Positions 20,844-41,642 of a DNA stretch of 64,000 nucleotides are shown here, piece by piece (within the stretch, counting starts at the first letter, position 1; the number at the start of each line of letters is the position of its first letter). A program made the position numbers and the translations under genes. This DNA is from a virus. The DNA is taken from IMG/VR virus record IMGVR_UViG_3300032783_000063, positions 37,306 to 101,305 of that record; one strand, given 5' to 3'. The notes beneath the pieces were generated by a model. The model searched no databases and was not told the origin of the DNA. It saw only the letters and a list, made by a program, of their open reading frames with translations.

Positions 20844-21727
20844 CACGCCAACTCACCGAGATCGTGCTCGCCAGCCGTGACGACATCCCCGCCGTCCCCC
20901 TCGGGGCGTGGCGCACCAGCGAGATCTGGTGCCCAGTCGGCGCCCCGTTCGGCGCCTATCAGGCGTCGTCACGCGGCCGTATCCGCAGCGTCGACCGCAC
21001 CGCAGCCAACGGCCGCGCCTACAAGGGCGTAGTGCTCAGCGCGCGGCTCTCCCACCGCGGCCCGAGCGCGGGCACCAGGCACTCCTACGAGCAAGTCAAC
21101 GTCACCGCCGGCGACGGCACGAAGCACACCAGGCCCGTCCACTGGCTTGTCACGCTCGCCTTCGAGGGCCCCAGGCCCGCAGGCCAGCCCGAGACCCGCC
21201 ACTACAACGACCAGCCGCTCGACAACAGGTGGGCCCCGGGCGCCACGAAAGAGGAACGGCAGGCCAACGGCGGGAACCTGGGCTACGGGTCGCGGGAGGA
21301 CCAGGAACGCGACCAGGCCGAGAACAACCCGCCCGAGCCGAGGCCGCCGCGACCGGTCGTCCTCTGCGAGCCCCACGGCCGGCCCGTAGTCAACGGCAGC
21401 AAGGTCCGCTGCCAGGCGTGCATCGAGCAGCTGGGCATCGCCGGCGCCCGCCTCATCGCCTCGGGCCTCAGCCCGGCCGAGGCAGCTGAGCAGCTGGGCT
21501 ACAGCTCGCCGGACGGCCTGGTGCGCCACGCCAAAAACCACGGCGGCCTGATCGAGACCATCACCTACTCGCTCGCCGGCGGGACACCGCCCGTGATACT
21601 CGCCGGGGACCCTCCCGCGAGTGTTATACGCAACCACCCTGTGACCAGCGGAAACGTGCCGGATGGCGGCCGCCGCCGAGTGTCCCGGCTGAGGCGCCTG
21701 TTCCGCCAGGTCGGTGACTCACAGTGA
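20840..21727 (+). CDS. NUMOD4-HNH homing endonuclease-like protein
   Basis: EIWCPV...YQASSRGRIRSVDR...VHWLVTLAFEGPRP...TRHYNDQPLDNR...NLGYG. Confidence 0.8.
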   Translation: MTRQLTEIVLASRDDIPAVPLGAWRTSEIWCPVGAPFGAYQASSRGRIRSVDRTAANGRAYKGVVLSARLSHRGPSAGTRHSYEQVNVTAGDGTKHTRPVHWLVTLAFEGPRPAGQPETRHYNDQPLDNRWAPGATKEERQANGGNLGYGSREDQERDQAENNPPEPRPPRPVVLCEPHGRPVVNGSKVRCQACIEQLGIAGARLIASGLSPAEAAEQLGYSSPDGLVRHAKNHGGLIETITYSLAGGTPPVILAGDPPASVIRNHPVTSGNVPDGGRRRVSRLRRLFRQVGDSQ

Positions 21728-22033
21728 ACGCCGGCCTGACGTCACGCACAGTGAGCGGCCCGCTAATCCGATCGAACTGGAAACTCGCCCAAGATCGTTC
21801 ACCGCTAACCATAGTACGCAGCCACATAAGGGGCATAAGCGGGCGTTCTACGCTGGGGCGAGTTGCTCGCGGGGGGAGGCCCGCCGCGAAGCGGCGTAAA
21901 GGCGCGTGGCCTCCCCCCAAACCCGTCCCAGATGGGACAAACTGGGACACCCTTCTGGGACAGCCCAGGGAGACGAGTTGTTTGCTTGATATACACAGCA
22001 AACCGGCTGCCGAGCCGAGTCACACACAGTGAG
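21714..22033. promoter_or_regulatory. three BldD-box-like 15-mers
   Basis: GTGACTCACAGTGAA (21714), GTCACGCACAGTGAG (21741), GTCACACACAGTGAG (22019); each one mismatch to nTnACnC(A/T)GnGTnAn. Confidence 0.55.
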
Positions 22034-22157
22034 CAACAAAAACAAAGGTCAGGTTCAAGGCAGGGGGACATCCTGTACACGTACATGGTTTCACGTGCCA
22101 CGTACAGTGGGTATACTTACGCGCAGAGAGATTCACTCCCTAGCCAACAGAGAGGCC

Positions 22158-26375: not shown

Positions 26376-26795
26376 ATGTGCAACCCCGTGACAACCCTCA
26401 ACCCGGACTGCCTCCTCGCCAAAGGCACGGCGAACGGCTACGAGTGGGAAGTCGTCAGCAACCCGCTTGGCTACCGCTGCGGCTATGTGCGCATCCCGGC
26501 CGGGCACCCGTGGCACGGCAAGGGCATCGACGACGTCAACCCGGACCCGTTCGTACATGGCGGCCTGAACTTCGCCCGGGCGGACACTGACTGCGGCAAG
26601 GGCGGCGGGGATGATGCGTGGTGGCTCGGATTCGATTGTGCCCATGCGGGGGACGCCCCGGACCCGGCGCTGCCAGGCCATGATCCTCACATGCTGGAAC
26701 TGCTGCAGCGGGCGGGCTGGACTGTCCGGTCAACGGACTATGTAATCGGCGAGTGCGTGTCACTTGCCCGGCAGGCCGCCGCCGCAGTGCGGTAG
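26376..26795 (+). CDS. conserved phage hypothetical protein
   Basis: GYRCGYVRIP.GHP...VHGGLNF...WWLGFDCAHAGD. Confidence 0.75.
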   Translation: MCNPVTTLNPDCLLAKGTANGYEWEVVSNPLGYRCGYVRIPAGHPWHGKGIDDVNPDPFVHGGLNFARADTDCGKGGGDDAWWLGFDCAHAGDAPDPALPGHDPHMLELLQRAGWTVRSTDYVIGECVSLARQAAAAVR

Positions 26796-26805
26796 AACAC
26801 TGTGC

Positions 26806-27252
26806 GTGAAAGCACTCACCGTCCGTAACCCCTGGGCTCACGCCATCGCCCACTGGCGCGAAACCATCATCAACATGACCTGGCCAACCGGCTACCGCGG
26901 CGAGCTCGCCATCCACGCCCACCCCGCCGCCGACCCCGCAGCGGATGATGACCCTCGCATCGCCGAGGTCGCAAGATCCCATCCGGGCATTCCCATGGCA
27001 GCCGGCGCGGTGGTCGCGGTCGGCCACCTCGCCGGCTGCCATCACGCTGAACGGTGCGACCATGCGTGGACGCCCTGCTGCCAGCCCGGCTGTCACCACC
27101 TGTGCGACCCGTGGGCCACCTACGGCATGTGGCACTGGCAGCTCACCGGAGTGCGGACGCTGGCGGTGCCAGTACCCTGCAAAGCCGGGCTCGGCCTGTG
27201 GGAACTCCCCGAGACGGTCGCCGACCAGACGTACCCGACCGAGGTGCTGTAA
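26806..27252 (+). CDS. ASCH/PUA-domain protein
   Basis: KALTVRNPWAHAI...TW.TGYRGELAIHA...W.L..VR.L..PVPCK..LGLW. Confidence 0.8.
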   Translation: MKALTVRNPWAHAIAHWRETIINMTWPTGYRGELAIHAHPAADPAADDDPRIAEVARSHPGIPMAAGAVVAVGHLAGCHHAERCDHAWTPCCQPGCHHLCDPWATYGMWHWQLTGVRTLAVPVPCKAGLGLWELPETVADQTYPTEVL

Positions 27253-27841: not shown

Positions 27842-28453
27842 ATGAGCCCAAGACCACCACCTAAACGTAGATACCCTATCGAACCACTCACAGCAGGCGA
27901 AGTTAAGCTTCTGATGCGACAGTTCTCAACTACGACCGCAACGGGTATCAGGAACAGAGCACTCATAACAGTGATGTACCGCTCAGGACTGCGCATCTCG
28001 GAAGCGCTCGCGCTGAAGCCAGCCGACGTTGACCCGAAACAGGGATCAATCAGGGTCCTGCATGGCAAGGGCGACAAGAGCCGCGTCGTCTCCATTGACG
28101 ACGACGCGCTCGCTGTCGTACAGCGCTGGATGGACCGCCGCAAGATCGCCCGCATCAGAAACGGCTACCTGTTCTGCACCCTCCAGGGCGCAGACATCAA
28201 AGGCAGCTACGTCAGGGCAATGCTGAAGAGACAAGCGGAGAGGGCAGGGATCACCAAGCGGATCCACCCCCACGGCCTGAGACATTCCCACGCCGCCGAG
28301 CTCGTCGCCGAAGGCGTACCCGTCAACGTGATCCAGCAGCAACTTGGGCACGCCCACCTATCCACCACTGACGTCTACCTGCGGCACGTAGCCCCGGCAG
28401 ACGTGATCGCCATCGGCCGCAACCGCACATGGAACCTGGAGGACGAAGCGTGA
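27842..28453 (+). CDS. short tyrosine recombinase (catalytic domain only; FimB/resolvase-like)
   Basis: RNRALI.VMYRSGLRISE, KGDKSR, HPHGLRHS, LGH, Y; 203 aa, no arm- or core-binding domain. Confidence 0.9.
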   Translation: MSPRPPPKRRYPIEPLTAGEVKLLMRQFSTTTATGIRNRALITVMYRSGLRISEALALKPADVDPKQGSIRVLHGKGDKSRVVSIDDDALAVVQRWMDRRKIARIRNGYLFCTLQGADIKGSYVRAMLKRQAERAGITKRIHPHGLRHSHAAELVAEGVPVNVIQQQLGHAHLSTTDVYLRHVAPADVIAIGRNRTWNLEDEA

Positions 28454-30427: not shown

Positions 30428-31276
30428 ATGAGTGATGTCCCGTTCCCGGATCAGGTGAGCGGCGTGGGGCCGATGGACGGCGGGACGCTGGACGGGACCG
30501 TTCGGGCGCCCAGGCTGCCCGCAGCGGGCAGGTCGCAGCCGGTGGACATTTCCCGGCTGCACCCGCACCCGGATAACATCCGCGAGGATCTCGGGGACCT
30601 GGAGGACATGGCGGCGTCGATCCGCGTGCACGGGATCCTGCAGGCGCTCGTGGTCGTCCCGCATCCGTCCCGGGCAGGTCATTACCATGTTCTCGCCGGG
30701 CACCGGCGCCTGGCTGCGGCCAGGCTGGCGGGGCTGGCGGACGTGCCGGTCACTGTCCGCCAGGCTGACATCGGCGTGTCGAAAGCCGTGCAGGTGATGC
30801 TGATCGAGAACTGTCAGCGTGAGGATCTGGGCCCGGTGGAGAAGGCCGAGGCGATGGGGAAGCTCGTCTCGGGGGGCATGTCGCAGGTGCAGATCGCGAA
30901 GGCTATCGGGATGTCTGATACGACGGTGTCCACGTATCTGGCTCTGCTGGAGCTAGACCGGGCGACGCAGCGGCGGGTGGCTGCGGGGATGGTCCCGGTG
31001 ATGGATGCGGTGCGGGCGGTGCGGAAGACCCGGGCGGCGAGCCGGTCGCGGGACGGCGGGGCGGACCGTAACAAGGCGATGGCGCTGACGTGGGAGCCGG
31101 ATCATTTCACTGACCGGCATCCGCTGGCCCGGAAGGCGAGAGCGATGTGTGACGCACGGGAGCATAACGCGCGGCGGCGGCTTGGCCGGGTGGCGTGCGG
31201 GGAGTGCTGGGAAACGGTGATCCGCCGTGATGAGCAGCTGGTTGTCCGGGCGGGGATGCTGGAGGGCGGCCTTTAG
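30428..31276 (+). CDS. ParB/RepB/Spo0J-family protein
   Basis: LHPHPDNIR...SIRVHGILQALVV...GHRRLAAA...ENCQREDL.PVEKA + HTH. Confidence 0.9.
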   Translation: MSDVPFPDQVSGVGPMDGGTLDGTVRAPRLPAAGRSQPVDISRLHPHPDNIREDLGDLEDMAASIRVHGILQALVVVPHPSRAGHYHVLAGHRRLAAARLAGLADVPVTVRQADIGVSKAVQVMLIENCQREDLGPVEKAEAMGKLVSGGMSQVQIAKAIGMSDTTVSTYLALLELDRATQRRVAAGMVPVMDAVRAVRKTRAASRSRDGGADRNKAMALTWEPDHFTDRHPLARKARAMCDAREHNARRRLGRVACGECWETVIRRDEQLVVRAGMLEGGL

Positions 31277-31975: not shown

Positions 31976-32090
31976 CTCACACAGTATGGCATACCTGGCT
32001 GACAGTGTGCGGGCGTAACGCGCCGAAACTTTCCGCGACACGTTGCCGAACGTTGCCCCATGTCAGCGAAAGTACGCTAGAGTTAGCAAC

Positions 32091-32327
32091 GTGCAGCTAC
32101 TAGTGAACGCCGAGGCGCTGACGGCGATCCGCAGCAAGGACGGCCAGTCCATGGCGCAGCTTGCCCGCGGTGCGGGCATCAGCCGCCAGTACCTCAACGA
32201 CATCGAGAAAAAAAGGCGCAGCGCCGGGCCCGCCGTCCGCAGACGTCTCGCCCTGGCCCTCAACGTCCCCGTCTCGGCGATCGAGGCACAGGTCATTGAC
32301 GTGCGAAAACAGGACGATGCTGCATGA
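32091..32327 (+). CDS. Cro/XRE HTH protein
   Basis: ALTAIRSKDGQSMAQLARGAGISRQYLNDIEKKRR...LALALNVP. Confidence 0.8.
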   Translation: MQLLVNAEALTAIRSKDGQSMAQLARGAGISRQYLNDIEKKRRSAGPAVRRRLALALNVPVSAIEAQVIDVRKQDDAA

Positions 32328-35088: not shown

Positions 35089-35463
35089 ATGAGCGACCAT
35101 CCGCATGAACAGTGCGCGACCTGCCTCGCAGCCGCCTACGCCGCGAACGTCGCCCCCATCGACGAGCCCATGCACACCCCGGGCCCGGCACACCCCGCCT
35201 GGCGCGGCCTCACCGACATCCAGGTGTACGACACTTTCGCCGCCCTCGCCAAGGAGCTGACAGCAGTGCCCGACCCGATCGACTTCCCGCCGCTCCTCAC
35301 CCCCGCTGAGGTGGCCGCCATGTTCCACGTCAACCCCAAGACCGTCACCCGCTGGGCCGCCACCGGACGGCTCTCCTCCATCCGCACACCCGGGAACCAG
35401 CGACGCTACCTCGCCGACGAAATCCAGGCATTCCTCGACAGCAAGACCACCGAGCAGTCATGA
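35089..35463 (+). CDS. bldC: BldC-like MerR-family HTH regulator with N-terminal extension
   Basis: LLTPAEVAAMFHVNPKTVTRWAATGRLSSIRTPGNQRRY closely matches Streptomyces BldC as recalled. Confidence 0.85.
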   Translation: MSDHPHEQCATCLAAAYAANVAPIDEPMHTPGPAHPAWRGLTDIQVYDTFAALAKELTAVPDPIDFPPLLTPAEVAAMFHVNPKTVTRWAATGRLSSIRTPGNQRRYLADEIQAFLDSKTTEQS

Positions 35464-35807
35464 ACAGCCCCGTGCCGTACGAACGGCAGGTCGGCGACAG
35501 GCTCCGCGCCATCCGCGCCAGCCGCGGCCTGTCCCTCCTGGACGTCCAGGATAAATCCGGCGGCAGATGGAAGGCTGCTGCCGTCGGCACGTATGAACGC
35601 GGCGACCGGAACATCAACGTGAGAACCCTGTCCGAGCTCGCCCGGTTCTACGGCGTGCACCCGGCGGTGTTCCTGCCGGAAGGCGACGCGCCGGGACTGC
35701 CGCTGCCCGCCCTGCTGGAACTCCTCGAGGCAGCGAAGTACCTCGCGGCAGCACTGCCGGACCTGGAAACCCTCGTCGACACTGCCACGGAAGGCCCCCC
35801 GTCATGA
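35460..35807 (+). CDS. bldD: BldD DNA-binding-domain homologue lacking c-di-GMP domain
   Basis: LRAIR..RGLSL.DV..KSGGRWKA..VG.YERGDR...V..L.ELA.FYGV is the BldD N-terminal XRE signature; only 115 aa. Confidence 0.85.
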   Translation: MNSPVPYERQVGDRLRAIRASRGLSLLDVQDKSGGRWKAAAVGTYERGDRNINVRTLSELARFYGVHPAVFLPEGDAPGLPLPALLELLEAAKYLAAALPDLETLVDTATEGPPS

Positions 35808-36271
35808 CGGGCACCCACAGAACTCCGGGGCCGGCCATCGGTGAAAACCCCCTGGCCGGTCCTGGGTACACTCCTGGCCGGACCCCTTGGGGAAGTGCGG
35901 CCCGGCCAGGAAACAACATCACCCTCATGGCCACTGCCGCCGGGCGCATGAGCGAAGACGAACTCGACCAGCAAGTCCGCGGCATCCTCAAAGACCTCGA
36001 CCTCCACGGCCACCGGATCCTCCGGTTCCACCCGTGGTCCAGCAGGAAATCCGCAGCCGGCTGGCCGGACTGGGCGATGGTCGGCGCAGGCGGGTTCATG
36101 ATCCGGGAACTGAAACGGGAGAGCGAGAAACCCCGGCCGGACCAGCAGGAATGGCTGGACTGGCTGGCCGCGGCCGGGGTCGACGCAGGCGTGTGGCGGC
36201 CATCCGATTTGTACAGCGGAAGAGTCGCACGCGAACTCGCCTCGCTAGCGGGACTCGGAGATGCGGCATGA
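35804..36271 (+). CDS. VRR-NUC nuclease
   Basis: MSEDEL...GWPD...RELK......Q.EWL..L......VWRP. Confidence 0.8.
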   Translation: MTGTHRTPGPAIGENPLAGPGYTPGRTPWGSAARPGNNITLMATAAGRMSEDELDQQVRGILKDLDLHGHRILRFHPWSSRKSAAGWPDWAMVGAGGFMIRELKRESEKPRPDQQEWLDWLAAAGVDAGVWRPSDLYSGRVARELASLAGLGDAA

Positions 36272-37719
36272 CCTTGCGCATCGGCAGTTTGTGCTCCGGC
36301 TACGCCGGCCTGGACATGGCCATCCAGTCAGTCATCGGCGGCGAGCTCGCCTGGGTTGCGGACAATGACCCCGGCGCGTCAAAGATCCTCGCTCACCACT
36401 ACCCCCGCGTTCCCAACCTGGGGGACCTCAGCGAGGTGGACTGGGGCAGCGTCGAACCCGTGGACGTGGCCGCGATGGGCTTCCCCTGCCAGGACGTGTC
36501 CTGCGCCGGGGCTCGGGCGGGTCTGCGGGAGGGCAACCGCACCGGCGTGTGGAACTACTGCGCGACCGCGATCAGCGTCCTCCGCCCGCCTTTGGTGATC
36601 ATCGAGAATGTGAGGGGGCTGCTCAGTGCCTACGCCGACAGCAACATGGAACCCTGCCCGTGGTGTGTGGGAGACGCCGGAGACGAACTTGTTCTGCGAG
36701 CATGCGGGGCTGTTCTCGGAGACCTGGCCAGTCTCGGGTATGACGCGGAGTGGACGGTTGTTTCCGCGGCCGACGCTGGCGCCCCGCACCGCCGCGAACG
36801 GGTGTTCATCGTCGCGTGGCCTGCTGCCGACACCGCAGGCGCGCGATGGGGCCGGGGCGAAGACGCCAGAGCAGATAGCTGTGATGCGGGCACGTGGTCA
36901 TGGGGTGTCGAACCTGAACGAGGTCGCGCCGACGTTACTGAAGACGCCGACGGCGCAGCTGGCGGTGAACGGCGGAAGTCAGCACCCGGACAAACGCCGG
37001 GCGGGCGGGCACGGGCCGACGCTGGCCGACCAGATAGAACACCTCCTGCCCACGCCCAGGGCGACGGACGGGACGAAAGGCGGCCCGAACCAGCGAGGCT
37101 CAGCAGGAGACCTGATGCTCCCGTCAGCGGTCCAACATCTCCTGCCGACCCCGGCCGCGAGGGACTGGAAGTCCGGGCAGTCGAACATGATGGACCGGAA
37201 CGCCCGACCGCTGAACGAGGTCGTGGAAATGCTCCTGCCAACACCGGGTGCGTGCGACTGGAAGGGCTCCGGCCAGACCCAGGGCCGCACACGGGGCGGT
37301 CGGCCCCGGTCGCCTGGGGACAAGGACCTGCCCGAAGCGATAGCGCTCCTGCCGACCCCCAGGGCGAGCGACGGACTAGGTGGAACGGCACACAACCGCA
37401 GCTGGTCCACGACGGACCGGAGCCTGCACACGCTGATCCATACCGGGGAACTTGGGGCGCCTACGAGCCAGCTATCAGACGCTGGGAAGCCACCCTCAGG
37501 CGCCCCGCGCCAAGCCCAACTGAGCCCGGGCGAACCGGAGACCGCCTGAGCCCGGCGTTCGTCGAGTTCATGATGGGCCTGCCCGACGGGTGGATCACCG
37601 ACGTCCCCGGGCTGTCAAGGAACGACCAGCTCAAAGCCCTCGGCAACGGTGTCGTCCCCCAGCAGGCCGCCCTCGCGCTGCGGCTCCTGCTGCCATCCCT
37701 GACGGCGGCCGCAGCATGA
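36268..37719 (+). CDS. DNA cytosine-5 methyltransferase
   Basis: SLCSGYAG (I), GFPCQDVS (IV), ENV (VI), PHRRERVFI (VIII), LGNGVVP (X). Confidence 0.9.
   Translation: MTLRIGSLCSGYAGLDMAIQSVIGGELAWVADNDPGASKILAHHYPRVPNLGDLSEVDWGSVEPVDVAAMGFPCQDVSCAGARAGLREGNRTGVWNYCATAISVLRPPLVIIENVRGLLSAYADSNMEPCPWCVGDAGDELVLRACGAVLGDLASLGYDAEWTVVSAADAGAPHRRERVFIVAWPAADTAGARWGRGEDARADSCDAGTWSWGVEPERGRADVTEDADGAAGGERRKSAPGQTPGGRARADAGRPDRTPPAHAQGDGRDERRPEPARLSRRPDAPVSGPTSPADPGREGLEVRAVEHDGPERPTAERGRGNAPANTGCVRLEGLRPDPGPHTGRSAPVAWGQGPARSDSAPADPQGERRTRWNGTQPQLVHDGPEPAHADPYRGTWGAYEPAIRRWEATLRRPAPSPTEPGRTGDRLSPAFVEFMMGLPDGWITDVPGLSRNDQLKALGNGVVPQQAALALRLLLPSLTAAAA
36626..37549 (+). CDS. nested alternative-frame ORF with LLPTP-x-A-x-D repeats (putative MTase second subunit)
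   Basis: 307-aa open frame inside the MTase with six LLPTP/LLKTP repeats. Confidence 0.6.
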   Translation: MPTPTATWNPARGVWETPETNLFCEHAGLFSETWPVSGMTRSGRLFPRPTLAPRTAANGCSSSRGLLPTPQARDGAGAKTPEQIAVMRARGHGVSNLNEVAPTLLKTPTAQLAVNGGSQHPDKRRAGGHGPTLADQIEHLLPTPRATDGTKGGPNQRGSAGDLMLPSAVQHLLPTPAARDWKSGQSNMMDRNARPLNEVVEMLLPTPGACDWKGSGQTQGRTRGGRPRSPGDKDLPEAIALLPTPRASDGLGGTAHNRSWSTTDRSLHTLIHTGELGAPTSQLSDAGKPPSGAPRQAQLSPGEPETA

Positions 37720-38054
37720 CCCGCATCGCCGACCAGGTATCCGCCGAGCGCATTCAGCGCGCCGCCAAAGGCGAACCCAACCCCGTCGTCGTCGGCCGTG
37801 AACTCGGCGGCGAAGCGTGCCTCTCCATGCCCTCGATCAGCGCCAAGGAGAAAGCCGCAGAAGAGCGCCGCGCAGCCCGGTATGCAACCCGCTGCACCAT
37901 GCTCGCCGTCCACGGCTGCGCCGCCCCCAGACGCCGCCAGTCCCCAGAAGGCCAGTTCCTTGACCTGGTCCTGCGGGCCCTCGGGTTAGCCCCCGACCCC
38001 GTCAAACCCGCCATCCCCAGGAAACGCAAATACGGAGAGGCCATCCCGAGGTGA
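37716..38054 (+). CDS. hypothetical protein
   Basis: ATGA overlap. Confidence 0.5.
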   Translation: MTRIADQVSAERIQRAAKGEPNPVVVGRELGGEACLSMPSISAKEKAAEERRAARYATRCTMLAVHGCAAPRRRQSPEGQFLDLVLRALGLAPDPVKPAIPRKRKYGEAIPR

Positions 38055-38299
38055 ACGACTGGAGGCTGCGCGCGAACTGCCGGGGCATGGACCCCGACCT
38101 GTTCTTCCCCTTGTCCCGCACCGCGCCCATCGACCCCCGGGTGAAAGCCGCGTGCCGGGACTGCCTGGTCATGCGGGACTGCCACGACGACGCGGAGCGG
38201 CGGCAGGAGGCGTGGGGGATACGGGCGGGGATCAACCGGGAACTGCTGCCGTGGCGGCGGCGGGCGGTACAGCGGTCGCGGGGGAAGGTGCCAGCGTGA
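38051..38299 (+). CDS. whiB: WhiB-family regulator
   Basis: DWRLRANCRGMDPDLFFP...ACRDCLVMRDC...WGIRAG. Confidence 0.8.
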   Translation: MNDWRLRANCRGMDPDLFFPLSRTAPIDPRVKAACRDCLVMRDCHDDAERRQEAWGIRAGINRELLPWRRRAVQRSRGKVPA

Positions 38300-39602: not shown

Positions 39603-40299
39603 TGCACACGAAAACCTGCTCGGCAAGTTCCCCGGCGCGGTATCTGCCACATGCGACGGCCGGGGGGCCGTGAACCTGGAAGTCGCAGGTGAGGCCCCCG
39701 GCTGGCGGTCAGCGCGGTGCCCGATCTGCGCTGGAAAGAAAGTTTCCGCTGCTGTTGCGGGGTTTGTTCCGCCACGGTTCCGTGACCCGATCAATGTGCC
39801 CGCTGACGTCACGGAATGGGCGGCCCGCGGCCGGACTGCGCAGGGGCTTTACCTGGCTGGCCAGGTCGGTACCGGCAAGACTCATGCTGCATGGGTAGCC
39901 ACGGCTGAGTGGTGTCTGGCCACAGGGACGCTCCCGCATGGCGAAGACGAGCACTGGACTGTCGGCCGGGTGAGACCCACTGTCATTTTCACTCGCATGA
40001 CGGATCTTCTGGACGATCTGCGGCCTGGTGATGAAGCACGTCAGCGGGTTCGGGACTGCCAGTACGCTGACCTGCTGGTCCTGGACGATCTGGGCGCCGA
40101 GAAAGCGTCAGAGTGGACGCAAGAACGCATCTACAGCGTCATCGACCACCGTTATGTGACGTGCTTGCCGCTGATTGTCACGAGCAACCTGCCGCCGACC
40201 AAGCTTTCCGGGCAGACCGGCGAGCGCGTCGCGAGCCGGCTCGCCGAGATGTGCCTTGTGGTGCCGATGACTGGCCGCGACAGGCGGCGGCAGTCATGA
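39589..40299 (+). CDS. DnaC/IstB-like helicase loader
   Basis: GQVGTGKT, LLVLDDLGAE, IVTSN, ERVASRL. Confidence 0.88.
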   Translation: MAGPDAHENLLGKFPGAVSATCDGRGAVNLEVAGEAPGWRSARCPICAGKKVSAAVAGFVPPRFRDPINVPADVTEWAARGRTAQGLYLAGQVGTGKTHAAWVATAEWCLATGTLPHGEDEHWTVGRVRPTVIFTRMTDLLDDLRPGDEARQRVRDCQYADLLVLDDLGAEKASEWTQERIYSVIDHRYVTCLPLIVTSNLPPTKLSGQTGERVASRLAEMCLVVPMTGRDRRRQS

Positions 40300-41642
40300 C
40301 GGTCATCGACGCGCCGCCGGTGGTCATGCCGGACGTTGACCTCGCCGAGAAGGCCGTCCTGGCGGCGATGCTGGCGTCCCGCCGTGCAGCGGAGACGCTG
40401 ATCGAGATCCTGCCGTCGGCGGATTGTTTCGGCAGCCAGATCCACCGGGCCGTGTACGACGCTGTCCGGTATGTGACGGAAAGCGGGGAGCCGCATGAGC
40501 CGCCGTCGGTGCTGAAGCGGCTTGTCGCCGTCGAGGCGGGGGTTTGGCGGACCGGCCAGGCGGGGGTGATCCTCGCCGGCCTGGCCGGTTATGTGACGGC
40601 GTCGTACGAGGCGCATGCCCGGACGGTCCTGAACGCTGCGGTGCGCCGCCGGGGCGAGGTGGCGCTGCTGCAAATCGCGGACCTGCTGAAGGATCCGGCG
40701 TTTGATCCTGAGGGCGGCGGTGACCTGGCGCGGAAGCTGCTGGATGACGCCCTGACAGTGTCGGGTGATAACGGGGCTGCGGTTCCGGTGTCGGAATTGT
40801 TCGTGTCGTCGTTCGAGCGGCTGGAGGCGGGGAAGCAGCCGGGTGTCGTGCAGGTGCCGTGGCTGGATCTGCGGAGTCTGGTGCCGTGGCTGCGGCCGGG
40901 CCAGCTGGTGACGATCGCGGCGCGGCCGTCGCTGGGCAAATCGCTGCTGGGTCAGGACATTGCCCGGCATGTGGCGATGCGCCAGCACCTGCCGGTGATC
41001 TTGTTCACGATGGAGATGGACCGCGACGAGGTCATGGACCGTCTCATCGCTGCTGAGTCGTCGGTGCTGCTGAAGCGGATCACCGACTCCACCCTGGATG
41101 AGGACGAGTGGGATCGGATCGCGGCCACATCACCGCGGTTCGCCGACTCGAAGCTGATCATTGATGACACGCCGCAGATCACGCTGGCGCATATCCGGGC
41201 CCGGCTGCGGGGCATGGCGCGGAAAGATCCGGCGCAGGTGGCGATCGTCGATTACCTGCAGCTGATGGACGGCGCGGGCGGGGAGAACCGGCAGCAGGAG
41301 GTTGCCCGGCTGGTGTCGGGGCTGAAGGCGATTGCCCGCGAGTTCCGGATCCCGGTGGTGATGCTGTGCCAGCTGAACCGGGGACCTGAGGCCCGGCATG
41401 ACAAACGTCCGTACATGTCGGATGCCCGTGAGTCGGGCGCGGTTGAGAACGATTCGGATATCGCGATCCTGATTCACCGCCCGGATCACTATGAGGCCGA
41501 GTCGCCGCGTGCGGGTGAGGCGGACCTGATCGTGGACAAGAACCGGAATGGGCCGCGGGCGACGGTGACGGTGGGGTTCCAGGGTCACTACGGCCGGTTC
41601 GTTGATCTGGCGCCTGCGCATCTGGCGGGCGGTGTGCGATGA
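40296..41642 (+). CDS. dnaB: replicative DNA helicase DnaB
   Basis: AARPSLGKS, IVDYLQL, QLNR, DARESGAVENDSD, KNRNG. Confidence 0.95.
   Translation: MTVIDAPPVVMPDVDLAEKAVLAAMLASRRAAETLIEILPSADCFGSQIHRAVYDAVRYVTESGEPHEPPSVLKRLVAVEAGVWRTGQAGVILAGLAGYVTASYEAHARTVLNAAVRRRGEVALLQIADLLKDPAFDPEGGGDLARKLLDDALTVSGDNGAAVPVSELFVSSFERLEAGKQPGVVQVPWLDLRSLVPWLRPGQLVTIAARPSLGKSLLGQDIARHVAMRQHLPVILFTMEMDRDEVMDRLIAAESSVLLKRITDSTLDEDEWDRIAATSPRFADSKLIIDDTPQITLAHIRARLRGMARKDPAQVAIVDYLQLMDGAGGENRQQEVARLVSGLKAIAREFRIPVVMLCQLNRGPEARHDKRPYMSDARESGAVENDSDIAILIHRPDHYEAESPRAGEADLIVDKNRNGPRATVTVGFQGHYGRFVDLAPAHLAGGVR

What the first reader, a model, noticed from the sequence alone, without database searches (positions are those of the whole stretch)
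35089..35807. Phage-encoded BldC + truncated BldD pair: candidate hijack of the host sporulation switch
Seen: two translationally coupled genes in the early operon. The first carries a near-copy of the BldC MerR domain. The second carries the BldD DNA-binding signature (LRAIR...GLSL...KS.GRWKA..VG.YERGDR...ELA.FYGV) but is only 115 aa. The c-di-GMP-binding C-terminal domain (RxD-x8-RxxD) is absent and replaced by a Leu-rich amphipathic helix (LPALLELLEAAKYLAAALPDLETL). Established: BldD represses sporulation genes in filamentous actinomycetes and needs c-di-GMP to dimerise; BldC also delays development. Inference: the phage protein is either a c-di-GMP-independent BldD holding hyphae vegetative, or a dominant-negative competitor that triggers sporulation. 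With two WhiBs and an Rpf, this looks like a coherent viral life-cycle-control kit.
Basis: partly seen in the sequence, partly recalled or inferred. Interest (0 to 1): 0.9.

Follow-up and report, generated by a model that had tools for sequence, protein, structure and literature searches.

The report
Phage copies of BldC and BldD
A complete 101-kb phage of actinobacteria carries, as two overlapping genes, its own versions of the host developmental regulators BldC and BldD; its BldD has lost the c-di-GMP sensor domain, so it could act on BldD-type DNA sites regardless of the host's signal, which has not been tested.

Summary
Gene A (35089-35463, 124 aa) passes NCBI's BldC-family cut-off. Gene B (35460-35807, 115 aa) is a BldD-type DNA-binding domain: 58% identical to the solved BldD domain, with a model rmsd of 0.4 A. 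B matches 27 of the 28 positions that are at least 90% conserved in 58 full-length BldDs. It has no c-di-GMP domain; a 28-residue amphipathic helix follows the domain instead. The genes overlap by ATGA.

Such genes are rare in phages. None of 50,697 GenBank phage records has a BldD-like domain, and one has a BldC-like gene. B's nearest relative outside its own cluster is a metagenomic protein in which a MerR/excisionase-type HTH is fused to the same domain and tail.

A is a divergent BldC. It has a conserved 62-aa N-terminal extension, and the invariant wing His46 is Gln.

The phage has three near-identical BldD-box-type palindromes in one intergenic region.

I read the pair as c-di-GMP-blind DNA-binding regulators of BldD/BldC specificity. 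Whether they control phage genes, host development or both is open. The host is unknown, and the tree cannot tell host capture from an old mobile lineage.

The hijack idea is plausible but unproven.

The parts
35089..35463 (+). Gene A: 124-aa BldC-family protein
   Evidence: ORF and translation. NCBIfam HTH_BldC 86.3 bits, cut-off 77. PDB 6AMK/6AMA E 2.5e-17. Relatives P0038, P0313 and P0314 are 81-82% identical over the full length.
35089..35274 (+). A, residues 1-62: N-terminal extension of unknown function, with conserved H6, C9, C12, H29 and H35
   Evidence: No Pfam, NCBIfam or PHROG hit. No Atlas lead. Conserved in three close relatives. AlphaFold gives helices 10-19 and 43-58 at low to moderate confidence.
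35293..35436 (+). A, residues 69-116: BldC-type winged helix-turn-helix
   Evidence: pLDDT about 90. It matches 30 of the 33 positions that are at least 90% conserved in 108 cellular BldC-like proteins. The misses are R22H, G45N and H46Q.
35460..35807 (+). Gene B: 115-aa BldD-type DNA-binding domain plus a helical tail
35469..35681 (+). B, residues 4-74: BldD-type XRE DNA-binding domain
   Evidence: Foldseek to 2EWT/4OB4: rmsd 0.4 A, 58% identity. It matches 27 of the 28 positions that are at least 90% conserved in 58 full-length BldDs.
35703..35786 (+). [quoted passage not shown]
   Evidence: AlphaFold helix 82-109, pLDDT 84-89 falling to 60. Amphipathic moment test. Not similar to the BldD C-terminal domain. 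Homologous to the tail of the fusion protein P0157, z 10.3.
35460..35463 (+). ATGA stop/start overlap between A and B. The same overlap occurs at 35089-35092 and 35804-35807.
   Evidence: Sequence.
21714..21729 (.). BldD-box-type palindrome, copy 1 (TGAC-N5-GTGA); candidate operator, by inference
21741..21756 (.). BldD-box-type palindrome, copy 2 (GTCACGCACAGTGAGC)
22019..22034 (.). BldD-box-type palindrome, copy 3 (GTCACACACAGTGAGC). It lies about 58 nt upstream of a promoter-like site at 22090-22117.

Best explanation
A and B are two co-translated phage DNA-binding regulators of the BldC and BldD lineages. B keeps the whole BldD DNA-reading surface, so it should recognise BldD-box-type palindromes (TNAC-N5-GTNA). 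[quoted passage not shown] In BldD the DNA-binding domains pair only weakly, and a c-di-GMP tetramer that bridges the C-terminal domains is needed for tight binding. I infer that B's helix provides that pairing permanently, making a BldD that ignores the host's c-di-GMP level. A keeps BldC's base-contacting residues and head-to-tail contacts. It has a changed wing tip (His46 to Gln) and an extra N-terminal module, so it probably coats direct repeats in the BldC manner but reads a different groove shape. The two act together on DNA: in a related metagenomic protein they are one polypeptide. Their likely targets are the phage's own cluster of BldD-box-type sites and, through the same specificity, host promoters under BldD control. 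That would keep development genes repressed during infection. Shown here: homology, domain loss, helix prediction, gene overlap, the fusion, and the sites. Inferred: dimerisation through the helix, the DNA targets, and any effect on the host.
For: BldD-specific similarity. B matches 27 of the 28 positions that are at least 90% conserved in 58 full-length BldDs. B is 58% (median) identical to them, against 61% among themselves. There is no c-di-GMP domain or motif. A confident DNA-binding domain is followed by a long amphipathic helix. The tail is 92-95% conserved in close relatives and is shared with P0157. A passes the BldC cut-off and keeps K26, R30, W31, R47, R48, G44, F21 and V23 (residue roles from PMC5859096). 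P0157 fuses a wHTH to a B-like protein that has the same tail. A second, otherwise unrelated complete viral contig carries both gene types 4.7 kb apart. Three near-identical TCAC-N5-GTGA sites lie within 320 bp of one intergenic region. BldD's weak domain pairing and its need for c-di-GMP come from PMC4151990. A host locked in vegetative growth gives large clear plaques, and developmental genes are repressed early in infection (PMC10117723).
Against: There is no experiment and no expression data. The host is unknown. BldD-box matches are not enriched across the window: 11 against 6.3 +/- 2.3 expected, and 33 against 26 +/- 5 with one mismatch. Only the one cluster stands out, and another regulator could bind it. 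No such site lies next to the A/B genes. A's invariant wing His46, whose H46E mutant loses DNA binding, is Gln. The N-terminal HTH of P0157 is only 32% identical to A and falls below the BldC cut-off.
Confidence: 0.5

Rival explanations
1. The pair are purely internal phage regulators, a Cro-like XRE and an architectural wHTH that time phage gene expression. They have no effect on host development. The likeness to BldD and BldC reflects an old lineage of short forms carried on mobile elements, not mimicry.
For: A few dozen apparently complete short BldD-type proteins with varied helical tails exist in metagenomes and in three other viral contigs. The AU test does not reject a tree in which all full-length BldDs form one clade that excludes every short form (p 0.475). 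The phage has its own palindrome cluster. A BldC-like phage protein, D29 Gp36, is already known to regulate phage genes (PMC12266134).
Against: B is as close to cellular BldDs as they are to each other, and it keeps nearly every conserved residue. That is unusual for phage repressors, which diverge fast. If B has the same specificity as BldD, host sites would be bound anyway.
Confidence: 0.25
2. A and B form a lysogeny or excision module. A is a recombination directionality factor (excisionase) for the phage's tyrosine recombinase, and B is the Cro- or CI-type switch protein.
For: A hits excisionase families (PHROG 66, E 3e-9; TIGR01764, 26.8 bits). P0157's N-terminal domain passes the excisionase cut-off. 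A tyrosine recombinase lies at window 27887-28387 and a ParB at 30428-31276. BldC and Xis share a fold (PMC5859096).
Against: A is above the BldC cut-off but below the excisionase cut-off. The recombinase lies 7 kb away, and its open frame is only 209 aa, which is Xer-like in size. B sits inside a co-directional replication and recombination operon, not in a divergent immunity position.
Confidence: 0.1
3. B is a dominant-negative competitor. It occupies BldD boxes weakly or pairs with host BldD domains, which lifts repression and pushes the host into development.
For: BldD domain-domain contacts are weak and malleable, so mixed pairs are conceivable (PMC4151990). B lacks the domain that makes BldD an effective repressor.
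Against: Early sporulation helps the host escape: a bldD mutant gives small turbid plaques and fast regrowth of resistant cells (PMC10117723). A conserved amphipathic helix argues for a self-sufficient protein.
Confidence: 0.08

Closest known systems
BldD of Streptomyces (PDB 2EWT, 4OB4; c-di-GMP complexes 4OAX-4OAZ)
   Same: The XRE-type DNA-binding domain is the same: 58% identity and rmsd 0.4 A. B matches 27 of the 28 conserved positions, including the RWKA...YERGDR recognition region and Tyr62 (Tyr64 in B).
   Different: B has no C-terminal domain and no RGD/RQDD c-di-GMP motifs. It is 115 aa rather than about 160-170 aa. A single amphipathic helix follows the linker. B is phage-encoded. 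It scores 89.5 bits against the equivalog cut-off of 250.
BldC of Streptomyces (PDB 6AMA, 6AMK)
   Same: The winged HTH is about 65% identical and lies above the NCBIfam BldC cut-off. Base contacts K26 and R30, the kink residue W31, wing residues R47 and R48, and most head-to-tail contacts are kept.
   Different: A has a 62-aa conserved N-terminal extension, whereas BldC is a bare 68-aa wHTH. The invariant G45 and H46 are N and Q. R22 is H and K33 is A. A is 67% (median) identical to cellular BldC-like proteins, against 81% among themselves.
Mycobacteriophage D29 Gp36 (MerR-like, BldC/Xis-like phage regulator; PMC12266134)
   Same: It is a small phage-encoded wHTH protein that binds direct repeats and tunes phage gene expression.
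   Different: Gp36 resembles BldC only in structure. It did not appear in a tblastn search with A at E 1e-6. It has no XRE partner of BldD type.
Phage-encoded WhiB-like regulators and other development genes of actinophages (ParB, FtsK, SsgA), as cited in PMC10117723
   Same: These are host developmental regulator families carried by actinophages. This phage also has two WhiBs.
   Different: WhiB is common, in 24% of actinophage genomes according to that paper. BldD-type domains were found in none of the 50,697 GenBank phage records.
XRE repressors with a C-terminal pairing helix (ClgR 3F51, SinR 1B0N)
   Same: They have a five-helix XRE domain followed by a helix that is used for oligomerisation. 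Foldseek aligns ClgR over 111 columns.
   Different: Identity is only 19-23%. The helical match is poor (rmsd about 15 A), so this is an analogy and not shared ancestry of the tail.

Membership tests
BldD (NCBIfam NF050110 equivalog) | BldD-type XRE DNA-binding domain | tested here: met
BldD (NCBIfam NF050110 equivalog) | C-terminal domain (PF21179) with the RxD-x8-RxxD c-di-GMP motifs | tested here: not met
   There is no PF21179 hit. The local C-terminal-domain profile gives no hit, and the tail scores no better than its shuffles. The tail holds no Arg.
BldD (NCBIfam NF050110 equivalog) | Whole-protein score above the curated cut-off (250 bits) | tested here: not met
   89.5 bits.
BldD (NCBIfam NF050110 equivalog) | Binds the BldD box TNAC-N5-GTNA; binding is enhanced by c-di-GMP | not testable with these tools
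   Only indirect evidence: the recognition residues are conserved, and the phage has three box-type sites.
BldC family (NCBIfam NF033787 subfamily) | Score above the curated cut-off (77 bits) | tested here: met
   86.3 bits; 87.8 bits on the genome scan.
BldC family (NCBIfam NF033787 subfamily) | Protein consists of the wHTH alone (about 68 aa) | tested here: not met
   A has a 62-aa N-terminal extension that is conserved in relatives.
BldC family (NCBIfam NF033787 subfamily) | DNA-contact residues K26, R30, W31, H46, R47 and R48 | tested here: inconclusive
   Five of the six are kept. H46, invariant in 108 cellular members and essential in BldC, is Gln.
BldC family (NCBIfam NF033787 subfamily) | Head-to-tail contact residues (L11, E16, F21, R22, V23, I40, T42, L43, G44) | tested here: inconclusive
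   Seven are kept. R22 is H. L43 is P, which also occurs in 12 of 108 cellular members.
Excisionase (TIGR01764) | Score above the curated cut-off (28.8 bits) | tested here: not met
   26.8 bits.

The most novel reading that the evidence does not exclude
The phage makes a c-di-GMP-blind BldD together with a modified BldC. Together they clamp the host's developmental regulon shut during infection. This blocks the aerial-hyphae and spore escape route that otherwise contains plaques. It would be a viral bypass of a bacterial second-messenger checkpoint, achieved by deleting the sensor domain of the host's own master repressor.
Probability: 0.3. Interest if true: 0.85.

Novelty: new variant of a known kind. 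Interest (0 to 1): 0.62.

Why it matters
BldD bound to c-di-GMP sits at the top of the Streptomyces developmental cascade, and BldC delays the same transition. Development is also known to limit phage spread. A natural, phage-made BldD without its c-di-GMP sensor would be a ready-made separation-of-function allele. It would test directly whether forced pairing of the DNA-binding domains is enough for repression. It would also add a second-messenger bypass to the known ways in which phages steer host differentiation, which so far include WhiB-like proteins and sporulation sigma factors. The fusion protein and the scattered short forms suggest that BldD-type domains are a modular part reused by mobile elements.

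Tried and rejected
1. Tail as a remnant of the BldD C-terminal domain: rejected. MAFFT and tblastn stretch the alignment into that region, but a profile of 46 BldD post-domain regions scores B's tail no better than its shuffles (34 of 200 shuffles score as high).

2. One family of 'short BldDs' sharing one tail: rejected. B's tail is clearly related only to P0157's (z 10.3). P0223 gives z 3.3 and the rest give z of about 2 or less.

3. Phylogenetic proof of capture from a host: not obtained. The 77-column tree is mostly unresolved. The AU test does not reject full-length BldDs as one clade that excludes the short forms (p 0.475).

The metagenome and genome scans returned chromosomal BldDs, chosen through the YERGDRNI pattern. 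P0157 and P0256 are not in IMG/VR. The only hint is that the B-like P0312 and the A-like P0038 are each recorded on a contig of 8,260 bp.

No result.

6. Genome-wide enrichment of BldD boxes: not significant.

7. N-terminal extension of A: no family, Atlas or structural lead.

8. Search for short forms in 401 Actinomycetota genomes: the 150 best matches all lie in open frames of 147 aa or more. 136 weaker matches were not listed. The sample includes 13 unpublished genomes; no single claim rests on any of them, only the tally.

9. TTA codons in A or B: none.

Full report
**What is there**

The window is bases 37306-101305 of a 101,305-bp IMG/VR virus record with direct terminal repeats, judged complete. 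Its GC content is 67%. A lies at 35089-35463 (124 aa) and B at 35460-35807 (115 aa), both on the + strand.

Three successive gene junctions are ATGA overlaps: 35089-35092, 35460-35463 and 35804-35807. So A and B lie in a tightly packed, co-directional gene string. Pfam places the following around them:
- ParB at 30428-31276
- a C5 cytosine methylase at 36268-37719
- a WhiB at 38051-38299
- a DnaB helicase at 40113-41642

The small neighbouring ORFs have no family. The phage is far from cultured phages: its DnaB is at most 36% identical to any GenBank phage.

**Gene B**

- Pfam sees only generic HTH_3/HTH_31.
- NCBIfam's BldD equivalog gives 89.5 bits (E 1.8e-25), restricted to profile positions 4-76 of 162. 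The next family has E 8e-5.
- Against the PDB, the BldD DNA-binding domain (2EWT, 4OB4) scores E 1.4e-19. The next XRE scores 0.003.
- An AlphaFold model (pLDDT 87.7) has a five-helix domain at residues 7-71 (pLDDT 96-98), a linker at 72-81, and one long helix at 82-109.
- Foldseek superposes the domain on 2EWT/4OB4 at 0.4 A rmsd and 58% identity. The next hits, restriction-modification controller proteins and ClgR, are three orders of magnitude weaker.
- I aligned 58 full-length BldDs, taken from a search of 1.84 billion representative proteins and from a word-index search. B matches 27 of the 28 positions that are at least 90% conserved; the one miss is Val to Ala. It matches 36 of 41 positions at 70% or more.
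- B's identity to those BldDs is 58% (median) and 65% (maximum). The BldDs are 61% (median) identical to each other.
- So B's domain lies inside BldD diversity, and the residues of the recognition region (S33, R36, W37, K38, Y45, E46, R47, D49, R50) are all kept.

**The missing sensor**

There is no PF21179 hit. A profile of the BldD C-terminal domain finds nothing. The tail scores no better than its shuffles against a profile of 46 BldD post-domain regions. The tail has no arginine, so the RxD/RxxD c-di-GMP motifs cannot be present. The helix is amphipathic: moment 0.98 against 0.48 +/- 0.25 in shuffles, with 3.8% of shuffles as high. The tail is nearly unchanged in the relatives that are 92-95% identical over the whole protein, P0003 and P0312.

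**Gene A**

- NCBIfam HTH_BldC gives 86.3 bits, above the 77-bit cut-off, on residues 69-116. The excisionase model is just below its cut-off (26.8 against 28.8).
- PHROGs places A with excisionases and regulators.
- The PDB search gives the BldC structures 6AMK/6AMA at E 2.5e-17.
- I mapped the residues named in the BldC-DNA paper (PMC5859096) onto A.
  - Kept DNA-contact and wing residues: K26, R30, W31, T27, T29, R47, R48.
  - Kept head-to-tail contacts: L11, E16, F21, V23, I40, T42, G44.
  - Changed: R22H, K33A, L43P, G45N, H46Q.
- In 108 cellular BldC-like proteins, G45 and H46 are invariant and R22 is 96% conserved. P at position 43 occurs in 12 of them. H46E abolishes DNA binding in BldC.
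- A is 67% (median) identical to cellular BldC-like proteins, which are 81% identical to each other.
- So A is a divergent member of the family. It is altered exactly at the residue that reads the narrow AT-rich minor groove.
- Residues 1-62 have no family and no structural lead. They are conserved in three relatives, including H6, C9, C12, H29 and H35. A metal site is a guess only.

**How unusual this is**

- tblastn of B against 50,697 GenBank phage records gives nothing at E 1e-3.
- The same search with A gives one uncultured faecal phage at E 1e-6.
- Pattern scans of 2.9 million IMG/VR contigs give three clearly BldD-type hits and one distant XRE (30% identical), and seven loci with BldC-like genes.
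  - L003 encodes a domain-only protein of 76 aa.
  - L004 is a low-GC virus that encodes a 72-aa protein.
  - L005 encodes a protein of about 102 aa with a helical tail.
- The L005 record is a complete 82.6-kb virus. Within the 12 kb compared it shares only these two genes with this phage. It carries a BldC-family gene (80.9 bits) 4.7 kb from its BldD-like gene.
- I found no paper on phage BldD or BldC homologues in the searchable library. The nearest is D29 Gp36, a BldC/Xis-like phage regulator recognised by structure.

**Relatives and the fusion**

The exhaustive search finds 403 cluster representatives at E 1e-10 or better. About half carry the BldD C-terminal domain. Many of the rest are frameshifted or cut fragments. 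A few dozen look like complete short proteins: a domain plus 30-50 residues of helix-prone tail. These are known only from metagenomes. In 401 sampled Actinomycetota genomes, 216 have a BldD-type domain. All 150 best matches lie in open frames of at least 147 aa (this tally includes 13 unpublished genomes). The tails are not one family.

The exception is P0157 (174 aa; its longest contig is 65 kb). Its C-terminal 105 residues are 53% identical to B, tail included. Its N-terminus is a MerR/excisionase-type wHTH: 32% identical to A's, above the excisionase cut-off and below the BldC cut-off. So B's closest relative outside its own cluster is fused to the kind of domain that A carries. This is a Rosetta-stone argument that A and B work on DNA together.

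**Origin**

The domain tree has 77 columns and is largely unresolved. Short forms are scattered among full-length BldDs. The AU test does not reject a tree with all full-length BldDs as one clade (p 0.475). Capture from a host and an old mobile-element lineage therefore both remain possible.

**Possible targets**

The BldD box is TNAC-N5-GTNA (PMC4151990). The window has 11 matches against 6.3 +/- 2.3 expected, which is not striking. Three of them are near-identical 16-mers (GTCACnCACAGTGAGC) at 21714, 21741 and 22019, all in one 890-bp intergenic region. A weaker reversed copy lies at 26795. A promoter-like site follows the third copy. Nothing shows which protein binds them.

**Mechanism**

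According to PMC4151990, BldD's DNA-binding domains pair only weakly (10 uM or more). A c-di-GMP tetramer bridging the C-terminal domains raises their local concentration so that the box is bound. B has the reading head but not the sensor, and it has a conserved amphipathic helix in the sensor's place. The most economical reading is a constitutive dimer, and therefore a BldD activity that does not depend on c-di-GMP.

If it acts on the host, it would keep the BldD regulon repressed, including bldN and whiB. BldC also prolongs vegetative growth (PMC6428758). Work with phage Alderaan bears on this (PMC10117723):
- A host locked in vegetative growth (bldN mutant) gives large clear plaques.
- A bldD mutant gives small turbid plaques and fast regrowth of resistant cells.
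- Developmental genes are repressed early in infection.

So such a function would pay for a phage. This is inference. Three rivals remain, and I cannot separate them from the main reading by computation: a purely internal regulator, an excision or switch module (there is a tyrosine recombinase at 27887-28387), and a dominant-negative protein.

**Caveats**

- The host is unknown. B's closest BldDs are from uncultured Actinomycetota, not from Streptomyces.
- BldD-type proteins occur widely in the phylum, including in genomes of 1.3-3 Mb. 'Sporulation switch' may therefore be the wrong word for this host.

**Verdict**

The homology reading is correct. 'Truncated BldD' describes the architecture, not a proven history. 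'Hijack' is a good hypothesis at roughly 30%. I class it as a new variant of a known kind: phage-borne copies of host developmental regulators.

Noticed in passing
window 21714-22034 and 26795-26810: Three near-identical 16-mers, GTCAC-n-CACAGTGAGC, which are BldD-box-type palindromes, lie in one intergenic region. A degenerate reversed copy lies 5 kb downstream. GGGACA occurs three times between them (21931-21960).
   Followed up: partly
window 27887-28387 (+): A tyrosine recombinase (PF00589, 142.7 bits) sits in an open frame of only 209 aa, which is Xer-like in size. It lies near a ParB (30428-31276). No serine recombinase was found in the genome. This suggests a plasmid-like or temperate lifestyle.
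   Followed up: partly
window 32043-32327 (+): A second small XRE protein (HTH_3, 33.6 bits), not of BldD type, lies 3 kb upstream of A.
   Followed up: no
P0157 (metagenome protein, longest contig 65,380 bp): A natural fusion of an excisionase/MerR-type wHTH with a BldD-type domain and the same tail as gene B.
   Followed up: partly
P0039, P0040 (metagenome proteins): Proteins with two BldC-type wHTH domains in tandem. This is a covalent version of the head-to-tail BldC dimer.
   Followed up: no
L053 5001-5357 and P0013: A chromosomal BldD variant of about 123 aa in an uncultured actinomycete (198-kb contig). The stretch holding helix alpha-2 and the first c-di-GMP motif is missing, but the end of the C-terminal domain is kept.
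   Followed up: no
G001 (MAG reached through L016): L177, L181, L183, L184: One actinobacterial MAG has five BldD-type matches. The four read here are full-length, and two of them are adjacent. So BldD is multi-copy in some lineages.
   Followed up: partly
L185 2462-3127 (Variovorax plasmid NZ_LR594676.1): A 221-aa regulator on a betaproteobacterial plasmid starts with a domain that is 45% identical to B's. The BldD-type head occurs outside Actinomycetota with other C-terminal parts.
   Followed up: no
window 35089-35274 (A residues 1-62): The conserved residues H6, C9, C12, H29 and H35 in the extension might form a metal site. There is no family and no confident fold.
   Followed up: partly
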